64,000 bases of DNA from Eledone cirrhosa (taxonomy: Eukaryota), in the NCBI GenBank assembly GCA_964016885.1, contig OZ024744.1, positions 45,942,001 through 46,006,000 of the forward strand. The letters are read 5' to 3'. The notes under the pieces are model-generated. The model was not told where the DNA came from. It saw only the letters and a program-made list of their open reading frames with translations, and searched no databases. The stretch's first letter is position 1. Each line of letters opens with the position of its first letter. Both the position numbers and the translations under genes were made by a program. Shown here piece after piece: positions 6,398-56,177 of this stretch.

Positions 6398-8032
<1,635 letters not shown>

Positions 8033-20105: not shown

Positions 20106-20914
20106 CTAACAAAAGAAATAATCTATTTGTTATCAAATTAGAAGTTTCAAAGATGTTATCAGCTTTATTTCATGACATTAATGTTGGTGTAACTTCATCT
20201 TTAGTCATAAATTGATATCTTGTCAGAATGAAGTAGTGAGGCTGACTTTATGTCTTTAGCTACAGATTTGATAGGAAATATATATATATTAGGTTGATAT
20301 GTGGTCTAAAATATATATATTGTCTATAAATGACTGATAGCAGATGTTCTGGTGAAATAGTAGTTTTACTACTACAGATTGTAATGGAACTCTGAGTAGA
20401 CACAATTGTAAAGTAAGAATAGATATGACAGTGTAAGACTGATGTCGGGGAAAGTAAATTGTGTATATATATATATATATGTAATTGTTACACAAGATAT
20501 AATTAGGTTAATTAAAGTTATAATTGTTTCTACTTTAGGCACAAGGCCAAAAATTACCCAGTGCATTACTGGTACTTTATTTTATCGACCCCATAAGGAT
20601 GAAAGGCAAAGTGAACCTCGGCGGGATTTGAACTCAGATCGTAAAGGGACGTAACTATGCTAAAGTTATAATTGTTTTTACTTTAGGCACAAGGCCAGCA
20701 ATCAGCGATATCCAATTTTAGCGGCCTAAATGCCGCTTACTTGCTGTAGTTGCTGCTTACTTCAATGTATGAGGCTATTCCAACAAATTTACATTCCCCT
20801 TTTTTTAGCCGTTAAAAGAAATATAGATTTATTTATTGTTTTTTTTTTTGCGATTTATTTGCCACTGGGGCATAGATTTCTTTATTTGCCCCTTTTTTGT
20901 TTGTTTTTTGGCGA

Positions 20915-21292
20915 TTTATTAGCCTTTTGGGGTCACACACACCCCCGTAGAAAGTGTGCGACCTTTCTGCCAGGGAGCACAGAGAGAGGGGGATGCTCCC
21001 TTCTTCTCTTACCTGTACAAGCCGATATAGAGAGATGGCCCACTTACACGGGCCATTATTGCTACTTCCACCCATCCTTCATGGAATTGGCTGGGACTGA
21101 GTGCCTTTTTCTCCACCTTGATCCTTCTTTCGAAGTGGTATCGGAAGAAGAGGACCATTTGTTGGCCGGCGACATATCCCCACAGTTTCCTCGTTGCAAA
21201 CGCATCTGGGACATTTCTTTTCCAAGGGGTTTCCGTCCCGGAATCCGTGTCTGTAGAGCCTTTCCCGAACGGGCAGGGCCCCTCGGTATAAT
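20915..21292 (-). mobile_element. L1/Tx1-type LINE ORF2 3' fragment with internal deletion
   Basis: Manual translation: YRGALPVRERLYRHG...CPRC...EETV (zf-RVT-like), then FFRYHFERRIKVEKKALSPSQFHEGWVEVA...stop, then AATAAA and an A-rich tract. Confidence 0.6.
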
Positions 21293-21342
21293 AGTAAGTA
21301 TTACTGGTTGTAATAAAAATGCAATCAAAATGTAATAAATAC

Positions 21343-21478
21343 CTTCACTGATTTCTTTCCTTATATTATCAACAGAAGTTGGTATGTCATCCAAAGTTCG
21401 CTTTGTATGTTCCCGAATAGCAGTGAATTTTGATAAAACTTTTTCTAATTCCTTCTCCACAGTAAGACAAATATCCAT
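21343..21478 (-). pseudogene. RMND5: Captured first coding exon of an RMND5-like (CTLH/GID E3 ligase subunit) gene
   Basis: MDICLTVEKELEKVLSKF resembles the recalled vertebrate RMND5A N-terminus MDQCVTVERELEKVLHKF; ends at donor AAG|GTATTT (phase 1); no downstream exons seen. Confidence 0.72.
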
Positions 21479-22869
21479 GTGTAGTTGAAGAGGATAAGTA
21501 TGAAAGAACAGTCATTTAAATTTACAGATGGACAGATGTGGTGTTTGGCACGGTTTGAGATATATAGAAAAATAATTATTTACAGAAAAAGAAAATAATA
21601 ATAAAGAATTATTATAATTTTTTTAAAGATTTATACCAAAAAACAAACAAAAAAGGGGCAAATAAAGAAATCTATGCCCCAGTGGCAAATAAATCGCAAA
21701 AAAAAAACTAAATAAATCTATATTTCTTTTAACGGCTAAAAAAAGGGGAATGTAAATTTGTTGGAATAGCCTCATACATTGAAGTAAGCAGCAACTACAG
21801 CAAGTAAGCGGCATTTAGGCCGCTAAAATTGGATATCGCCCAGCAATCATCCAGTGCATTACTGGTACTTTATTTTATCGACCCCGTAAGGATGACAGGC
21901 AAAGTCAACCTCGGCGGGATTTGAACTCAGATCGTAAAGGGACGTAACTATGCTGGAAAGCATGGCGTCCGACCCTCTACCGATACTGCCAATCCACCAC
22001 CCCGAAATGCTAAAGTTATAATGAAGACAGCAGGTACGCGGTATCGTTGGGAATGTATCAACTCTCGTACCGGTGTCATACGTTAAAAGTCCCTGATATA
22101 ATTTAATACCTTCAGACACAGTTCCAATCGTATTTAATTTATTGTAAATCAGAAAGTATGACTCAGCAAAATATCAATTATATATCAATAAGAGAACCTC
22201 TACGTAGTCTCTCTAACTGCTAGAAATAGCACTGATGTTATCCATTACAACTGCGCTCTCTCTCTCTCTCATATATATACACACACATGTATGTGTTTAT
22301 ATGTGTATATATGGGTGTGTTTACACGTATGTATGGTGTGTATATGTGTACATAAGGGTTTGGTATATGTACGTTTGGTGAACATATGTGTATTTACCGG
22401 TAGGTATGTGTGAGTGTGCGTTCTATACGCATTTATGCGTGTATATTTATATATGTATATATAATTATATGTATACATACACACAAACATATATTTATAT
22501 GTGTATTTGGTGTATACGCTCGTACGTGTGCGGGTATATGTGTCGCACCCGTTTACGTCCGTGTGCATGTGTTTATGTGTACGTGCATGTATATGCAAGC
22601 ATGGTGTGTGTTTTCGCATATGCACGTGTGTAAATGTGTGTATGCATATATTTAATTATTATTACTTTTATATTTCTAATAATCTCTGTCATTTTCGTTC
22701 AACTAATTTATTTACATTATTCTGAACTCAGAAACCGAGAATCATTCAGTTTCCTAAATAGTATATTAGTCTACGACTCCATTTATACCATAAACGTGGT
22801 TTTGTCTTTACGTGTAATTGTTGTCACCGCTCCACATAACAACGTATTATCTTCGCTTTTTTCCGTTCA

Positions 22870-45358: not shown

Positions 45359-45441
45359 CCTCCCCACCGAAATTGATGCGACAAAAGAAGCATCAACAGC
45401 AAAGTCTCTCCGGGGGGTTTACGAGTTCTCTTGGACCGTCT

Positions 45442-48400
45442 TCAATTGTCTGGTCCATACTCTGGAACGGGTAATAAGGTCTTGGGTCTGGTCTGTCTTG
45501 GAGTTAGTGGCACGATTTCCGAGATCTCCATCGGGTGATCTGTTGCAAATTCAAAAACAGTGTCTACTGCATCACCAGGTTCATTGTCTTCCTCAGTAGT
45601 GTACCGCGGTTGCAGCTGTTCCCAGTGTCGTCTCCACACCGGGCCATGAGGTATGACCTTAACGTTGAAGCAGCGAGTACCCAATGACTTCTTAATGATT
45701 GCTGGTACCCATCGGGGATCTTTGTCTCGGCGAGGTCCGTAGTACAGTGCATACACAGGATCTCCAGCCTTGTACTGCCTGGTAACCTTAGCGACACCTG
45801 CCGAGTCCGGAGACATCTGAGACTTATATGCTTCCTTAGACTGCTTGCTTTGAGCGATGTGTGCTGGCGAGGGCAGCAGAGAATCAATCCTTGTCCGTAT
45901 CTGCCGGTGATTCAAAAGTTCACTCGGAGAGAATCCACTGGATGTCGGTGTTCTCCGGAACTGCATCAAGAACTCTTGAAGTGCTCGCTTCGGCGGAAGA
46001 GAAGTCTTCCTCAGAGCTTGTTTGAAGGTCTGCACCAAACGTTCCGCTGCTCCGTTGGTAGCTGGGTGGTAAGGTGCCCCTGTCAGGTGCGTGATCCCAC
46101 GTTCTTTGCACCAGCTCTGGAACTCCTCAGAAATAAAAGTTGGTGCGTTATCGGTGACTAGCGTGTGAGGAAATCCGAAGTGTGGAAAGTCTTCTTCAAG
46201 CAGATCTAAAGTGGCTCTGGAGGACGCGGATGGCGTAGGATGAATGCATGGATAACTTGGAATAAGCATCCGTGATCACCAACCAATTACTGCCCATGGA
46301 ATTTATTGCGTGGTCCAGGTGTAAGCGACTCCACGACTTTTCAGGTAACATCCATAGGTGAACTGGAGACTTGGATGGCTGGTTTTGATGTTCACCACAC
46401 GAATCACATTGTCGACTGGTTTTCTCTATAGCAGCATCGATACCAGGCCAATAAACAGCAGTCCTTGTCAATTGTTTCATGCGCTCCATGCCAAAGTGTC
46501 CGAGATGCAGAAGATTGAGGATCTTTGGCTGTAAGCTATGTGGAATCACAACTCTCGATCCATGGATAAGGCATCCGTGGCAGATACTGAGTGAATCCGA
46601 TAACTTCCGGAACTTATTGACTTCGTCATTGATCTCAGTATTCTTTGGTGGCCAGCCTTCACGGACGTAGCGTATCACTGTAGATATCACTGGATCTTTC
46701 CCTGACTCTTGACGGAGGACGTTAGCATCGATAGGTTGGACTTGAAGACTGAGAGCTTTGATGGCGCACACCATGTCCATGTCTTCACCATTTTCCTTCC
46801 TGTCAAAGTCGATGTCATTACCAAATGGCAAGCGACTGAGGGCATCTGCATTGCCATGATCCGCTGTTTTCCGATATTCGATGGTGTAGTCAAACTGGTT
46901 CAGCCACAGGGCCCACCGTGCTAGTCGGTTAGCAGCGAGAAGTGGCGTCCCTTTCCTCGGACTGAACAGTGATGTCAGTGGCTTGTGGTCAGTTACGAGT
47001 ATAAACTGATGTCCGTACAGATACTGATAGAACTTCTGCAAGCCAAATATGATGGCCAGGGCTTCCTTTTGAATTTGGCCGTAGTTACGCTGTGCAGAAG
47101 TAAGAGTCTTGGACACATTGGATATTGGGCGCTCGCTTCCATCAGGATAGCGATGAAACAGGACTGCTCCAATACCAACGTTTGACGCGTCGCAAGCCAG
47201 TCCCAAAGTTTTGTTTGGATCGAAGTGTATCAGAACTCGATCCGATGAAAGCACATTTTTCGACTGATCAAAAGCTGACTGTTCTTCATCTCCCCACTTC
47301 CAAGTAGTCGTTTTTTTCGTAAGGCAATAGAGTGGCTCTGCCATGCTGGCCAGGTTTGGGATAAACTTTCCATAGAACTGAACTGAACCCAGGAAAGACT
47401 TCAAGCTTGAGACGTTCGTTGGAGGTGGCATCTTTAAAACTGCTTCGACCTTGGATCCCTTCGCGATCCCTTCAGCCGACAAGGTGTGTCCAAGGTATTC
47501 CACACTGGGTAGTGCAAACTGGCACTTGTCACGGTGACATCTGAGTCCTTTGTCGCACAGACGTGTGAGCAGACATTTTAGGTTGTTCAGGTGATCGTTT
47601 GCATCTTTCCCACTGATGAGCATGTCGTCCTGGAAGACGGCCACACCAGGTAGATCTTGAGTCAGATCTTCCATGATCTTCTGAAAGTAACCAGGTGCTG
47701 ACTTGATTCCGAAAGGGAGTCGTTCCTGCAGGAGCACCCCACGGTGAGTCGTGAGTGCAAGCCTGCATTGACTTTCTAGTGCCAGCTTGATCTGATTATA
47801 GGCATCAGCAAGATCAATCTTTGTGTATCCGAATCCACCTCCGAGCTTCTGCATCAGTTCCTCTGGGAGTGGCATTGGATGACGATGATCTGCAAGTTGG
47901 TCATTAATTCCCACAGAGTAGTCACCACAAATCCGTAGTTTGGGCTTCAGGTTGCCTGAAGTATGTGCTTTACGAATCTGTACCACTGGCGTTCCGTATT
48001 CGTTGAACTGTACTCGCTTCCAGATTCCTTTGGCGATGCCTTCTTCGTAATCTTTGGCCAGGTCATCACGAAGAGCAAACGGGACCGGGCGTGCCTTGTG
48101 AAAGACCGGTGTCGCGTCCGACTTGAACTTCACTTCCAGTTCGAAGTCATTAAGACATCCCAATTCTTGCTTGAAGAGATCTGGGAATTCATCACACATG
48201 TTGTGACAATCTCGTTGCATGGAAATATAGGGCTCATTTGAGGTCTTTGGATGCATCACTTCTGCACCCTCACTCTTGGCCTGGCTGTCTATGCTTTTCA
48301 ATCCTAGAGCATTGTCCACGGAAATTCCCAGAGTCTGGATAGCGTTTCGTCCCAGCAAATTAAGATCAGGGATCTTGGTGACGATGTAGGGTATTGAATT

Positions 48401-49635
48401 CCGTTTACCGGTCGTTGGATCCTTGGTTTGGCCCATGAAAGTTCCCAGAACGGGCAGGTCGTGCTTGCTGGCAGATTCAAACCGATGTTTGACATCTTGC
48501 AGCTTCGGTTTTCCTAATTGTTTCCAAACTGACAAGGAAACAAAATTGCCTGTAGTAGCTGTGTCCAATTCCATTGTGAAAAGTCTGTTCTGGATTGTTA
48601 TTGGCACATTCAAACTATGAGTATCGTGGGGAACTTCACCAAGGATTGCCTTGACTAGCTCAGCTTTCGTGATTCTTTTCACGTAATTCTGTGAGCGATG
48701 ATTACGTTGCTGATGTTGTTTCTTTCTACACACCGCTTGCAAATGTCCCTTTTTGTCACAAAAATGACATTTGGCTTCTTTGAAGGGGCAGTCTGTCGCT
48801 TTGTGGGCCTTTGCACATCGGTAGCACACCTCCTGGTCTGTGGAATAAGACTGCTGATGGTTCTTTCGAGGACCCTTGTTCTTATTCTGCTGGACCTTGT
48901 AGACTTGCTTGGTTTGGGAACCGTAAACAGTTTCCTTGGCAACCTTTGCTGCGTCTTCGGTCCCGATGGCAACTTGGACAGCACGGGCGAAATCTTGTTC
49001 TGTATCCTATTTCTTGAAAATAGCCTTCAACACAGATTCATTATTGACAGAACATATAAATCTCTGTCTTAGAGCTTCATCTTGTGGATTTGTGATCGAA
49101 GGAAAATCACAGGTAGCTGCATCCTGACGTATAGTGCTGCCAGCTCCTGGAGAGTTTCGCCTGGCTTCCGTTGCATGTCACTCCAGAACTTGAAACGTTC
49201 TCTCACAATGAAAAGTTTTGGGTCGAACTGTTCTTTCATGAAGTCAACAATTTCGTCCATTGTCAACTTGTTGATATCCTTAGGCGGATTTTGTTGAGCA
49301 GCCAGATTTTCAAGTTGTTTGTAGATAGCAGCCGTCTGATTAGTCAGGAACACTTGTGCCATGCGTTGCTCGGGTACAGCGTTAGCAGCCACAAACGTGC
49401 AGAATCTTGACCAGTAATCAGGCCATAGTTCTGTTGTTGAATCAAAAGCAGCAAATGGTGGGATGAATGCTGTTGGTGTCGAAGCAACTGGCGACGCCAA
49501 CAAACTCTGTTGTTCAGAATCTCGAGCACCAAACAGTTTTATCAGGGTGTCCATATCTTTCTTGTGTTGTTGTATTTGTTGTTCCATCTGTTCTCTAAAC
49601 AACTTTATTAGCTCCGCTGTTTGTTGTTCCGGCAT
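45442..49635 (-). pseudogene. Gypsy gag-pol (two zinc knuckles, protease, RT, RNase H, integrase), frameshifted
   Basis: CYRC..H..C and CHFC..GH..C, LDTATTG, FQDD, CDAS, IQKEALA, H-H-C-C, VTDNAP, NGAAER. Confidence 0.9.
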
Positions 49636-49657
49636 GTTTTTATGATAAACAATTTCC

Positions 49658-49844
49658 CGGCAATGTAGATAAATCCTATCGGCAATGTAGGTAAATCCTA
49701 TCGCCAATGTAGGTAAATCCTATCGGCAATGTAGGTAAATCCTATCGGCAATGTAGGTAAATACTATCGGCAATGTAGGTAAATCCTATCGGCAATGTAG
49801 GTAAATCCTATCGGCAATGTAGGTAAATCCTATCGGCAACGCCA
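49658..49844 (-). repeat. PBS (49827-49844) plus about 8 tandem 22-bp PBS-derived repeats
   Basis: Minus strand TGGCGTTGCCGATAGGAT 8 nt from the LTR, then (ttacctacattgccgataggat)n. Confidence 0.85.
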
Positions 49845-49852
49845 ATAAACTC

Positions 49853-50134
49853 TGTTGTATTCCTCTCGGTACTCGCAGAGAAAACATGAGTTATATCAAA
49901 TAATTTGTGTATTGTACGAAACAACCAAAACACCCCTCCTCACAGTAGCAGAATAACATAAAGTAAGTGAGTGCCAGCAGCAGTCTGTGACCGAGTTTTT
50001 AATACCAACGCTGACTGACTGCCCAGGTCACGTGATTCAGATGCAAATGTGTGAGCACATGTAAATTGAATAAAACGAATTTAACAGTCCATACAACAAT
50101 GAGATTGTGAGTTCGATTCCCAGTCCATACAACA
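49853..50134 (-). repeat. Gypsy LTR (shared central LTR)
   Basis: Near-identical to 45081-45358 with a 4-bp indel; PBS on one side and PPT on the other. Confidence 0.93.
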
Positions 50135-50341
50135 CCTCCCCACCGAAATTGATGCGACAAAAGTAGCATCAAAAGCAAAGTCTCTCTGGGGGTTTACGAG
50201 TTCTCTTGGACCGTCTTCGATTGTTTGGTCCATACTCTGGAACGGGTAATAAGGTCTTGGGTCTGGTCTGTCTTGGAGTTAGTAGCACGATTTCCGAGAT
50301 CTGCATCGGGTGATCTGTTGTAAATTCAAAAACAGTGTCTA

Positions 50342-50740
50342 TGTTGGTCCCACAACATCCAGGCCGAAACAAATGAGATCGTGTAGGTGTCACGACAAAA
50401 AAACACACAGTCCACGCTGTAAATGTGGCCGTGTAGGCAACACGGTAAAAACCTCCCAGCCCCACACTGTAAATGTGGTTGGTGTTAGGAAGGGCATCCA
50501 ACTGTAGAAAACCCGCCAGACAGTCCACGCTGTAATGTGGCCGTGTAGGCAACACGGTAAAAACCTCCCAGCCCCACACTGTAAATGTGGTTGGTGTTAG
50601 GAAGGGCATCCAACTGTAGAAAACCCGCCAGACAGTCCTATGCGAGCAAGACAACCACTCTTGCCTCAAGTGGGAAAACCCCCGTCCAAACCCATGCAAG
50701 CGTGGAACACGGACGCTAAACCTGATGATGATGATGATGA
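50342..50740 (+). mobile_element. RTE 3'-UTR-only insertion (subfamily C)
   Basis: TSD TGTCTA at 50336-50341 and 50741-50746, (TGA)n tail, matches 60944-61240. Confidence 0.9.
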
Positions 50741-51320
50741 TGTCTACTGCATCACCAGGTTCATTGTCTTCCTCAGTAGTGTACCGCGGTTGCAGCTGTT
50801 CCCAGTGTCGTCTCAACTCCGGGCCATGAGGTATGACCTTAACGTTGAAGCAGCGAGTACCCAATGACTTCTTAATGATTGCTGGTACCCATCGGGGATC
50901 TTTGTCTCGGCGAGGTCCGTAGTACAGTGCATACACAGGATCTCCAGCCTTGTACTGCCTGGTAACCTTAGCGACACCTGCCGAGTCCGGAGTCATCTGA
51001 GACTCATATGCTTCCTTAGACTGCTTGCCTTGAGCGATGTGTGCTGGCGAGGGCAGCAGAGAATCAATCCTTGTCCGTATCTGCCGGTGATTCAAAAGTT
51101 CACTCGGAGAGAATCCAGTGGATGTCGGTGTTCTCCGGTACTGCATCAAGAACTCTTGAAGTGCTCGCTTCGGCAGAAGAGAAGTCTTCCTCAGAACTTG
51201 TTTGAAGGTCTGCACCAAACGTTCCGCTGCTCCGTTGGTAGCTGTGTGGTAAGGTGCCCCTGTCAGGTGCGTGATCCCATGTTCTTTGCACCAGCTCTGG
51301 AACTCCCCAGAAATAAAACA

Positions 51321-52840
51321 TTAGCACTACTGGACATTGCTGAGTTTTTGAGTATCAGGTATTTGGAGGCCATGGGTTTAGCATAGTGTGAGTGGAGAAT
51401 TTGGGCTCTCTCGTCTATAGTGTTAATCCAGAGTTCCGTGTCTAATACAAGTAGTCTATTGTTAGGGTGTTTGGAAGGGTAGTCAATGGTTACAGTTATA
51501 CTCTGGTGTATGGAGTTAGCTATCTGCTGGATGCTTTCCATTGTGCTATCTTCTAATTTATGTTTATTAGTATTTTCTTGTGGGGGTGTTCTTATTACTA
51601 TATTAATATCGTCTACGTAACGAGAGTACATGATGAGGTCTTTGGAGCTCTCTTCAAGATCTTTGAGTCTCCTTTCCCATCATACCATAAAAAGGTTGGC
51701 AACATCACCAGCTATGCTGATGCCAATGGCTGATCCCTCATTTTGGGTGTAGATCTTTTTATTGAATTTGAATATGTGGGCATTTAGGGTAGTTTTAATA
51801 CTAGCCCCTATTACATGCGCGACCATTTTTCTCACTGGATCATTGTTTTCAGGTTTCCGTATGGCTTTGGTCCACCCAATCCACTTTCCCATGGAAGTCA
51901 ATTTGCCATTGAGGTTATGGTGGGGGGTCTACCTCATATGGGTCTACTGGGGCAGAAACGGCTAACGTCATGGCTGTCTAGTTACTCGGTGTCATAAGAA
52001 AATCTAAATAGGAGGCCCAGTTTATCTGTGTCGATGTTGCAGAACTCCACCTCACTCTCACTGATTATCTCCACACATTTTTCCACAGCAAAATCAATGT
52101 TAATGGATGGTTATAGTGATACCACATCCATACTGCCTATTATGCAGTTAGATAGGTTTTTGTTTTTGTTGCACTCATTGATTCTGCTGAGGAGGTCCTC
52201 TGTACTGTCACATACATCTGGGGACATCTTCATTATGGGGCGTATAACCATTAATGGGAAGTAGGAGATCCTGTAGTTGCTAGCGATATTGGCTATTGTT
52301 GGTGGTCCTGTCGTTGGGTCGTCGGCTGTCTTATGGTCTTTGCGGAGTCCATACAAGTGTGGTATGTCATTGTTAGATGCCTGGAAGTTGTTGGCAGTGC
52401 GTTTGCTTGGCTTTAGGATGTCGGTCCACATCATCATGTGAGCGTTGAGGATCTTCTCTCTCCCCTCATGTGTTTGTTGAGTAGTTTCGCTTGTGTTGGT
52501 GATGTGGGGTTGCATAGCCTCGATATAGTTCCGCATAGCCTCGATATAGTTCCGCATGCTATCGACATCCTACCAGATTTATCTGTGGGTAGACACACTA
52601 CCCCACCATGCCTTGAGCGTTACTTGAGGCTAACCAAGCCTTCTACAGGTTTCCTTCCAAGTTTTTGGACCTCTGGTCTGATTTGTATCTTAGTATATCG
52701 GTCTACTATTTGTCTAATTTTATTTATTGCTATGGTGAACTGTACTTCTGTCTCGTCATCTATTTTTTGTGGTACATAAACCCTTTTATTAAAAGGTAAC
52801 TTAGTGGGATACATTTTACTCATCTCATATATTGTCAGCT
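51321..52840 (-). mobile_element. Penelope-like element 5' half (RT), degenerate
   Basis: LYGLRKDHK, SMDVVSL, QNEGSAIG, YSRYVDD; joins seamlessly to 45080 when the Gypsy insertion is removed. Confidence 0.88.
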
Positions 52841-53084: not shown

Positions 53085-55133
<2,049 letters not shown>

Positions 55134-56177
55134 GTTTCTTTTTCCCTTGGCAGAATTTACAGATGTTATTCTTGTGTTATTTTTTATATTATATTCATAA
55201 AAATATTTCCTCTGCTATATTTCCCCCAAATGTGACCTGTCAAGATCTGAAGATGATGCAAACTTCTTTCTGATCCAAGTTTAGTTAAGATTCTAAATCA
55301 TCTTGTAAATATTTCAGATGGTGACGAAATGATATTTTTCCAAGAAACACAGTTCTGAGGAAATATTTCACAGTAACTCTGCCAAAGATTTATATAAATA
55401 GTGTTATATGAGTTCCGTATCAAAAGCTTTAGTCTTGAAATGATGATAAATAAAGGGGATGTATTCAAGATTAAAAAATAATTTCATCCCAATGTCATCT
55501 GATATTCTGAAATAAGAAAGAAACCGGATGAGATAATATAGAATACTTTAGAATCAGAGATAGATTTAACATTGGAAATGTATATTTCTATATTGATAAT
55601 CTGTAGATATCAACATTCATGTCCAGAGTTATTCTCTCCAATGTAAGCAGTAGTATTCCAGCATGCTCTATAAATTTTATCTTTCTGACTCTTGGGAGGT
55701 CTGCCCTATAGCCTTTACCCAGGAACTTTATTCTTATATGACATTCTAACATGGGAATTGTCTGAGACCTGAGATGTGTAACTTGACAGTTACTTGAGTA
55801 ACAGTTCTTTCTACCTGGAAGGGAAAAATGCTGTGCAACTGCTCAATAACAGTCAAAGTATTCTCACACAAGGGTACCCTAGGCACCCCACCAACATGAC
55901 TTGTGTTAGTCCTGTAGACACAATTAGTGGGAATTTTATTTGCAGGGATTTCCATAATTTTGGCGTTTTTTTCTCTTCTGGTTGGATGCCCTTCCTCTCA
56001 TCAACCCCTTTACAGCAAGGACTGGGTGTATTGTTCGTGGTACTAGAGAGGTTATTTTACTGGACTTAAGAGCTCTCTACCCGGTATCAGTTTCTATTTC
56101 AAGTGTCTACAATGATGATGATATATACATATATATATATGTACAAATATATATATATATATACACATATATATATA

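What the first reader, a model, noticed from the sequence alone, without database searches (positions are those of the whole stretch)
20695..21849. Pack-MULE-like element in an animal genome carrying a captured RMND5-like first exon
Seen: ~205-bp nearly identical TIRs starting with G, a 10-bp TSD (CCAGCAATCA) and no transposase. Removing the element restores a SINE (aggcacaaggccagcaatcatccagtgcattactgg) that aligns with the uninterrupted neighbouring copy (aggcacaaggccaaaaattacccagtgcattactgg). The cargo is ~150 bp of upstream sequence, a 136-nt ATG-initiated exon with an intact GT donor, and the start of an intron, which points to DNA-level capture. Known: long TIRs with a 9-11-bp TSD typify Mutator/MULE elements, and Pack-MULE gene capture is chiefly described in plants. 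Inference: the exon derives from RMND5 (CTLH/GID E3 ligase). It is co-oriented with and upstream of the ZNF locus, so it could in principle splice onto downstream exons.
Basis: partly seen in the sequence, partly recalled or inferred. Interest (0 to 1): 0.88.

Follow-up and report, generated by a model that had tools for sequence, protein, structure and literature searches.

The report
Merlin transposon spreading a host exon
This is a shortened copy of a Merlin-type cut-and-paste transposon family that carries the first exon of the host gene RMND5, fused to a scrap of a retrotransposon, at more than 70 places in a likely octopus genome; the exon was likely picked up once and likely spreads as a passenger with no function.

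Summary
The element is real (window 20704-21840) and the cargo is RMND5 exon 1: the intact host gene lies elsewhere and the exon differs at 6 of 136 bases. It is not a MULE. Family copies end in GG..CC with an 8-bp target duplication (34 of 48 pairings perfect at 8 bp, none at 9-12), and longer members carry an IS1595/Merlin transposase; the '10-bp TSD' is 8 bp plus two chance-matching bases. The exon occurs at about 77 element loci, in 37 of them in both mirror arms; this copy is a one-off deletion derivative. Asymmetric, ancestor-like Merlins keep the longer chimera, which suggests LINE-mediated RNA capture (about 55%) rather than the DNA capture proposed. The exon shows no purifying selection, the downstream ZNF is broken, and no RNA was available. 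The scan found this family before on other DNA (four notes, one naming Merlin). Verdict: new variant of animal Pack-TIRs, unusually high-copy, probably selfish.

The parts
20661..20703 (.). SINE segment left of the insertion (approximate start)
   Evidence: Aligns with the uninterrupted neighbouring copy at 20513-20554 (family D5); very high contig depth in public runs
20696..20703 (.). Left target-site duplication CAGCAATC (8 bp)
20704..20911 (+). Left terminal inverted repeat; first base A where the family has G; inner ~85 bp likely derived from repeated LINE 3' termini
   Evidence: LINE origin of the inner part inferred
20922..21287 (-). Internally deleted 3' end of an L1/Tx1-like LINE (ORF2 C-terminus and 3' UTR)
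   Evidence: tblastn of a genomic LINE ORF2 (RVT_1 + zf-RVT) hits element positions 315-476 and 475-582 at 56% and 69%; free LINE copies 80-85% identical to the longer version in L080
21288..21342 (-). Stub of RMND5 intron 1 with intact GT donor
21343..21478 (-). Captured RMND5 coding exon 1 (136 nt, 45 codons plus 1 base)
   Evidence: 6 of 136 differences to host exon at G000:C5:79536336; host gene located; P0001 matches human RMND5A at E 5e-156
21479..21625 (-). Captured RMND5 sequence upstream of the ATG (likely 5' UTR)
   Evidence: Alignment to host with a 16-bp loss; UTR status inferred
21626..21636 (.). Remnant of the Merlin core and the copy-specific deletion junction
   Evidence: Junction 23-mer found once in the genome with up to 1 mismatch; same core remnant in transposase-bearing copies
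21636..21840 (-). Right terminal inverted repeat ending ...GATATCGCC
21841..21848 (.). Right target-site duplication CAGCAATC (8 bp)
21841..21954 (.). SINE continuation right of the insertion
   Evidence: 94% to 20547-20661 (family D1)

Best explanation
This is a non-autonomous, internally deleted copy of a Merlin (IS1016/IS1595-type) DNA transposon family whose arm carries RMND5 exon 1 fused to a LINE 3' end; it was likely moved here in trans by the family's transposase and likely has no host function. Inferred history: (1) a chimera of the RMND5 5' end (about 165 nt upstream, exon 1, about 86 nt of intron 1) and a 5'-truncated LINE landed once behind the transposase stop codon of a Merlin, more likely by LINE reverse transcription (template switch or 5' transduction, about 55%) than by DNA copying; (2) the cargo-bearing end was mirrored onto the other end, so transposase-bearing copies have the exon in both arms, pointing outward; (3) internal deletions made the 1.7-kb foldback and many smaller forms, which spread by cut-and-paste with 8-bp TSDs; (4) a unique deletion cut one arm of this copy back to 204 bp. 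Shown: the structures, the cargo sources, the TSDs, the transposase family and the copy numbers. Inferred: the order of steps, the capture route and neutrality.
For: 8-bp TSD perfect in 34 of 48 end pairings, 1 mismatch in 5, none perfect at 9-12 bp; ends G..C in 46 of 48. Transposase between the arms matches PF12762 DDE_Tnp_IS1595 above the curated cut-off (E 3.8e-15; 5.8e-12). Merlin is defined by 5'-GG TIR ends and 8-9-bp TSDs (PMC8101967, passages). Host RMND5 has seven exon hits covering residues 1-378 of 401 at one locus on C5. 115 exon hits = 37 outward-facing pairs + 41 singles including the host. 65 sampled arms are 5.6% from the host and 2.1% from each other and share diagnostic letters, as one capture would give. 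Stem changes are 6 non-synonymous and 0 synonymous; among copies 31 and 12, against 105 and 30 sites. Asymmetric L080 and L079 read TIR-transposase-RMND5 piece-LINE end-TIR and keep more intron and more LINE. RNA-route hints: same-sense fusion to a 5'-truncated LINE with its natural 3' end; a second, independent LINE of the same clade is inserted at the same TIR position in L088 with a ~17-bp duplication; no match to the TIR or to this LINE piece in 48 kb around the host gene. Window junction unique.
Against: No uninterrupted transposase in 17 of 17 cargo-family loci examined (longest 283 aa from the start Met against about 330), so the mobilising copy is not shown. 9 of 48 pairings had no clean TSD; several are mispairings across nested elements. 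This copy alone cannot tell 8 from 10 bp: it needs a terminal G-to-A change, seen in 1 other of 48. The capture route is weakly supported: the candidate 8-bp duplication around the chimera has a chance level of 0.03-0.05, no clear microhomology lies at the intron/LINE joint, and published mRNA-LINE chimeras are mostly spliced and near full-length (PMC13174262, section 13 read), unlike this one. The neutrality test rests on 45 codons. The tree of 200 columns has 1 well-supported branch of 45, so the order of events rests on structure, not phylogeny.
Confidence: 0.82

Rival explanations
1. Pack-MULE: a Mutator-family element with a 10-bp TSD captured the exon.
For: Long TIRs starting with G; a 10-letter direct repeat flanks this copy if the terminal bases are left out; the fly multicopy Pack element Ssk-FB4 was assigned to MULE on such features (PMC8277862 section 9).
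Against: Family TSD is 8 bp in 34 of 48 pairings and never 9-12; the transposase inside the same TIRs is PF12762, with no MULE family hit; 1000-bp TIRs are listed for two zebrafish Merlins (PMC8101967 supplement rows).
Confidence: 0.02
2. Same Merlin family, but RMND5 was captured at DNA level (gap-filling or replication template switch) and the LINE inserted separately, either into the Merlin arm or into a since-lost RMND5 allele.
For: Intron sequence is retained; DNA-level capture is the model for animal Pack-TIRs (PMC8277862 sections 7 and 9); the TIR site is a target of this LINE clade on its own (L088), so a separate insertion is plausible; later deletions are common in the family and could have fused the two pieces.
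Against: Needs two events at one spot in the same orientation; the captured piece starts about 110 nt downstream of a CCGGAAGT motif (ETS-like; label recalled) and so seems to omit the promoter; no Merlin relic within 48 kb of the host gene.
Confidence: 0.4
3. The cargo is functional: foldback copies make hairpin RNA that regulates RMND5 by small RNAs or A-to-I editing, or single copies such as this one act as new first exons.
For: 37 loci hold the exon in both arms; a 62-nt perfect match to the host remains in this copy; ATG kept in 64 of 65 and GT in 63 of 65 arms.
Against: No purifying selection on the codons; ATG/GT retention is expected at 2% divergence; in this copy only the TIRs pair as a long stem, and the exon has no mirror partner; the downstream ZNF is broken and a splice to its likely acceptor meets a stop before the start codon (acceptor inferred).
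Confidence: 0.08

Closest known systems
Merlin superfamily (IS1016/IS1595-related; PMC8101967, passages and three supplement rows read)
   Same: 5'-GG ends, 8-bp TSD, DDE_Tnp_IS1595 transposase; long TIRs known (Merlin-1_DR and Merlin-N5_DR listed with 1000 bp); Merlin proteins abundant in Octopus bimaculoides (191 sequences in that paper).
   Different: Here the long arms are built from captured host exon and LINE sequence. No Merlin with a host-gene cargo turned up in searches (listings only), which cover the open-access library alone.
Animal Pack-TIRs, multicopy Ssk-FB4 and Pack-hAT-N8_XT (PMC8277862, sections 7 and 9 read; supplements searched)
   Same: A TIR element carries a host gene piece and has transposed repeatedly with distinct TSDs.
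   Different: There only 4 of the reference-genome cases are multicopy, with about 3-4 copies, and 'Merlin' occurs only in a table head, not among the 370 rows. Here about 77 loci, a Merlin carrier, cargo in the arms of transposase-bearing copies, and a LINE fused to the cargo.
Plant Pack-MULEs, e.g. tomato PM-ZIBP (PMC3310237, abstract and passages read)
   Same: One captured gene fragment amplified by a non-autonomous family (14 copies) after a change in TIR structure.
   Different: Mutator transposase family; extra TIRs there are tandem duplicates of TIR, not mirrored cargo.
mRNA-LINE-1 chimeric insertions / 5' transductions (PMC13174262, abstract and section 13 read)
   Same: 5' end of a host transcript fused in sense to a LINE; no source LINE in the present-day host intron.
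   Different: Those are mostly spliced, near full-length LINEs with 14-17-bp TSDs and stay single; this one is unspliced, 5'-truncated, has no clear TSD and was then amplified by a DNA transposon.

Membership tests
Merlin superfamily | TIRs with terminal 5'-GG | tested here: met
   Left end G in 46 of 48 and right end C in 46 of 48 pairings, mostly GGCG..CGCC; this copy has AG at the left end and CC at the right
Merlin superfamily | 8-9-bp TSD | tested here: met
   34 of 48 perfect at 8 bp, this copy included
Merlin superfamily | DDE_Tnp_IS1595 transposase in the family | tested here: met
   PF12762 above cut-off for L049 and L078 proteins lying between the same TIRs; none in this non-autonomous copy
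Merlin superfamily | An intact autonomous partner | tested here: inconclusive
   0 of 17 cargo-family loci uninterrupted; a sister Merlin (L084) has a 316-aa open frame but different ends after 6 bp; the genome search scored only 150 of 679 candidates
Mutator / Pack-MULE | 9-11-bp TSD (value from the finding and recalled) | tested here: not met
   No perfect 9-12-bp TSD in 48 pairings once the terminal bases are counted
Mutator / Pack-MULE | MuDR-type transposase associated with the TIRs | tested here: not met
   Only IS1595-type Pfam hits for the enclosed ORFs; a genome-wide MULE search was not run
Pack-TIR (animal) | Non-TE host sequence inside a TIR element with the parental copy elsewhere | tested here: met
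   Parent at G000:C5:79.536 Mb with its other exons; 88.7% over the cargo
Pack-TIR (animal), multicopy | Several loci with distinct TSDs | tested here: met
   33 distinct perfect TSDs among 34; about 77 loci
LINE-mediated chimeric retrocopy | Sense fusion of a cellular RNA piece to a LINE 3' end | tested here: met
   L080 junction at intron +86 to LINE ORF2, running to the natural LINE end
LINE-mediated chimeric retrocopy | TSD flanking the whole chimera | tested here: inconclusive
   An 8-bp word at both ends, chance level 0.03-0.05
LINE-mediated chimeric retrocopy | Cargo 5' end within the transcript / at the start site | not testable with these tools
   No run on record as RNA; contigs cannot show a start

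The most novel reading that the evidence does not exclude
A two-step relay: a LINE retro-copied the 5' end of a housekeeping E3-ligase transcript into a Merlin transposon, the Merlin mirrored it into both arms and spread it to dozens of sites, and the resulting ~800-bp hairpins now supply double-stranded RNA that tunes RMND5 through small RNAs or A-to-I editing. The relay alone I put at about 0.5; the probability given is for relay plus regulation.
Probability: 0.06. Interest if true: 0.85.

Novelty: new variant of a known kind. Interest (0 to 1): 0.52.

Why it matters
Multicopy gene-carrying DNA transposons are rare in the animal survey read (4 reference-genome cases of 370, about 3-4 copies each, none listed as Merlin). 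This family has one host exon at about 77 loci, with the intermediates still in the genome: asymmetric, mirrored and deleted forms. That makes the order of capture, mirroring and miniaturisation traceable, and it suggests a route by which a retrotransposon hands host sequence to a DNA transposon. The foldbacks are also a ready test of whether captured exons in inverted arms silence or edit the parent gene in an animal. This particular copy is probably inert.

Tried and rejected
No RNA holder listed; this says nothing about expression. Run X5 (kind not on record) has a 1,435-nt contig that matches host exon 1 without difference and leaves it at the donor, as a spliced transcript would, and a 129-nt contig with 6 cargo-type letters; low DNA carry-over of a 100-copy repeat explains the second contig as well, so it is inconclusive. 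No joint from donor 21343 appeared among the joints shown (15 shown, 1,742 not shown; contigs only). Contig depth over the cargo against host-only sequence was 641 to 5.2 in X1 and 250 to 16.4 in X6; this fits a multicopy family in two coded organisms, but the tool states depth is no copy number. Long ORFs across this copy (201 aa on +, 149 aa on -) gave no Pfam hit of note (one at E 0.093) and were rejected as chance read-through. An in-frame splice from the exon into the LINE piece would need a GAG acceptor about 60 nt from the donor; rejected as unlikely (from the sequence). Other inserts in 10 family copies were looked at as possible further host cargos: they match SINEs, LINE-like or other repeats where identifiable, none was recognised as a host gene, and they were not searched genome-wide. 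The 45-aa peptide alone hit RMND5A only at E 0.0011; the assignment rests on P0001 and the host locus. A word search of earlier notes for the LINE-chimera reading found 0. No structure or complex prediction was run.

Full report
Observation. The window holds inverted repeats at 20705-20911 and 21636-21839, 207/204 bp and 98% identical, inside a SINE whose uninterrupted neighbour aligns across the site (families D1 and D5). A 136-nt exon runs from ATG at 21478 to a GT donor after 21343 on the - strand. No transposase is encoded in this copy. The organism is likely an octopus; this is inferred from earlier notes of the scan and from recall of the repeat and ZNF content, and was not tested.

The cargo is RMND5. 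The peptide alone hit human RMND5A at E 0.0011 and a 401-aa CTLH protein, P0001, at 80%. P0001 matches RMND5A at E 5e-156. In this genome P0001 found seven exon hits in order at G000:C5:79.536-79.555 Mb, covering residues 1-378. The window exon differs from the host exon at 6 of 136 bases and ends at the same donor.

It is a large family. The TIR search had 527 candidates, 40 scored; an exact 21-mer of the terminus occurs 144 times, control 0. The exon peptide gave 115 matches from 141 candidates, which sort into 37 outward-facing pairs and 41 singles including the host, about 77 element loci on 20 contigs; 29 of 37 pairs are 270-310 bp apart, the 1.7-kb foldback form. These are lower bounds.

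It is Merlin, not Mutator. Across 48 end pairings in the fetched loci (chosen as best matches or for unusual structure, so not a random sample), counting the terminal G and C as element, 34 have a perfect 8-bp TSD, 5 have one mismatch, 9 have none (several are mispairings across nested copies), and none is perfect at 9-12 bp. One TSD occurs twice with the same flank, so 33 are distinct. This copy reads CAGCAATC on both sides; the '10 bp' adds the element's terminal C and a left terminal A where 46 of 48 ends have G. Longer members hold, between the same arms, a transposase matching PF12762 DDE_Tnp_IS1595. GG ends, 8-9-bp TSDs and that domain define Merlin (PMC8101967, passages); 1000-bp TIRs are listed for two zebrafish Merlins (supplement rows). 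None of 17 cargo-family loci examined has an uninterrupted transposase; the longest frame is 283 aa from the start Met. A sister Merlin at about 70% DNA identity has its own mirrored arms and no cargo match.

A second cargo. About 20922-21287 is the 3' end of a LINE: ORF2 of a genomic LINE with endonuclease, RVT_1 and zf-RVT aligns to it, and free copies (2,586 candidates, 40 scored) are 80-85% identical to the longer version and end in the same GTGGCAAATAAA motif that is repeated in the inner TIR (11 copies aligned). The label L1/Tx1-like is from recall of the domain layout; no tree was built.

History. L080 (2,894 bp, 8-bp TSD with one mismatch) and L079 are asymmetric: short left TIR, transposase, RMND5 piece to intron +86, LINE 3' end, right TIR, all in one sense. 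They keep intron and LINE sequence that the symmetric copies have lost, so they are ancestor-like; this order is inferred from structure. Symmetric copies read TIR-LINE-RMND5-transposase-RMND5-LINE-TIR, and L077 is a 3.8-kb palindrome with the transposase in both halves. The window copy keeps one full arm and a 204-bp TIR; its junction is unique in the genome. In 65 arms with the full exon (of 88 hits; 23 rows from overlapping loci dropped, window row added back, host row set aside), distance to the host is 5.6% and between copies 2.1%; all share five diagnostic exon changes, as a single capture would give. At a sixth site this copy alone has the host base.

How was it captured? For an RNA route: sense fusion of a transcript-like 5' piece to a 5'-truncated LINE with its natural end; an independent LINE of the same clade sits at the same TIR position in L088 with a ~17-bp duplication; no match to the TIR or this LINE piece in 48 kb around the host gene. 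Against: the intron is retained, the candidate duplication around the chimera is only 8 bp (chance 0.03-0.05), the joint shows no clear microhomology, and described mRNA-LINE chimeras are mostly spliced and near full-length (PMC13174262 section 13). I put the RNA route at about 55% and DNA capture plus separate LINE insertion at about 40%.

Function. Stem changes are 6 non-synonymous and 0 synonymous; distinct codon changes among copies are 31 and 12 against 105 and 30 sites, near neutral expectation, on only 45 codons. The ZNF array 13 kb downstream is co-oriented but has an in-frame stop after its first finger and several frameshifts, and a splice to its likely acceptor meets a stop before the start codon (acceptor inferred). 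In this copy only the TIRs form the long stem. The foldback copies could make exon-containing hairpins, and a 62-nt perfect match to the host remains, but expression was not testable here.

Comparison with print. Tan et al. report 370 animal Pack-TIRs, 4 multicopy in reference genomes, plus Ssk-FB4 in flies (PMC8277862 sections 7 and 9); 'Merlin' occurs once in 12 supplement files, in a table head, and 'Octopus' not at all. The Octopus vulgaris repeat annotation lists 2 recently active Merlin families and 13 L1-Tx1 families and has 0 occurrences of 'capture' in its main text (PMC13282606, passages; its supplement was not read and may list this family). Searches (listings) showed no Merlin with host-gene cargo; subscription journals and Repbase/Dfam were not searchable. 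The scan itself noted this family four times on other DNA, once as Merlin with exon and mobile-element scrap; my Merlin reading was written before that look-up.

Verdict. Observation partly confirmed, interpretation partly supported. A Pack-type Merlin: new variant of a known kind, notable for copy number, for cargo built into the arms of transposase-bearing elements and for preserved intermediates; this copy is probably inert. Interest 0.52.

Noticed in passing
L088:1080-6042 (G000:C4:338.226-338.232 Mb): A near full-length LINE (endonuclease + RT frames) inserted into the TIR of a family member at the same site where the ancestral LINE end lies, with a ~17-bp duplication; suggests the TIR holds a preferred target.
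   Followed up: partly
L077:3046-6873: A 3.8-kb fully palindromic family member with the transposase in both arms, both with the same stop codon.
   Followed up: partly
L084:3700-5589, L086:3480-5340: Sister Merlin family (ends GGCGATCCTTGG) whose left arm mirrors the transposase C-terminus, so arm mirroring is not limited to the cargo family.
   Followed up: partly
L046:2215-5175: A nested insertion with a helicase-like frame (Helitron-like; label recalled, not scanned) inside a foldback copy.
   Followed up: no
L076:1563-2180: A small family member inserted inside the RMND5 exon of a larger one, with its own 8-bp TSD.
   Followed up: no
L047:2824-4470, L061, L079:4545-4993: An unidentified 0.4-1.6-kb insert shared by several transposase-bearing copies; no host gene recognised.
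   Followed up: partly
window 6400-8000 (-) and 53200-55214 (-): Two related C2H2 ZNF arrays: the first broken, the second an open frame of about 530 aa from its likely start Met; their upstream sequences align.
   Followed up: partly
window 45400-51400: An LTR-retroelement-like stretch with gag/pol-like frames, plus several RTE-like and other LINE frames elsewhere in the window (labels recalled from the ORF list).
   Followed up: no
window exon codon 13 (about 21441): This copy has the host base at a site where 63 of 65 arms carry the derived base: back mutation or conversion from the host.
   Followed up: no
G000 genome-wide: 679 candidate Merlin transposase hits in several families, many with open frames of about 330 aa.
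   Followed up: no
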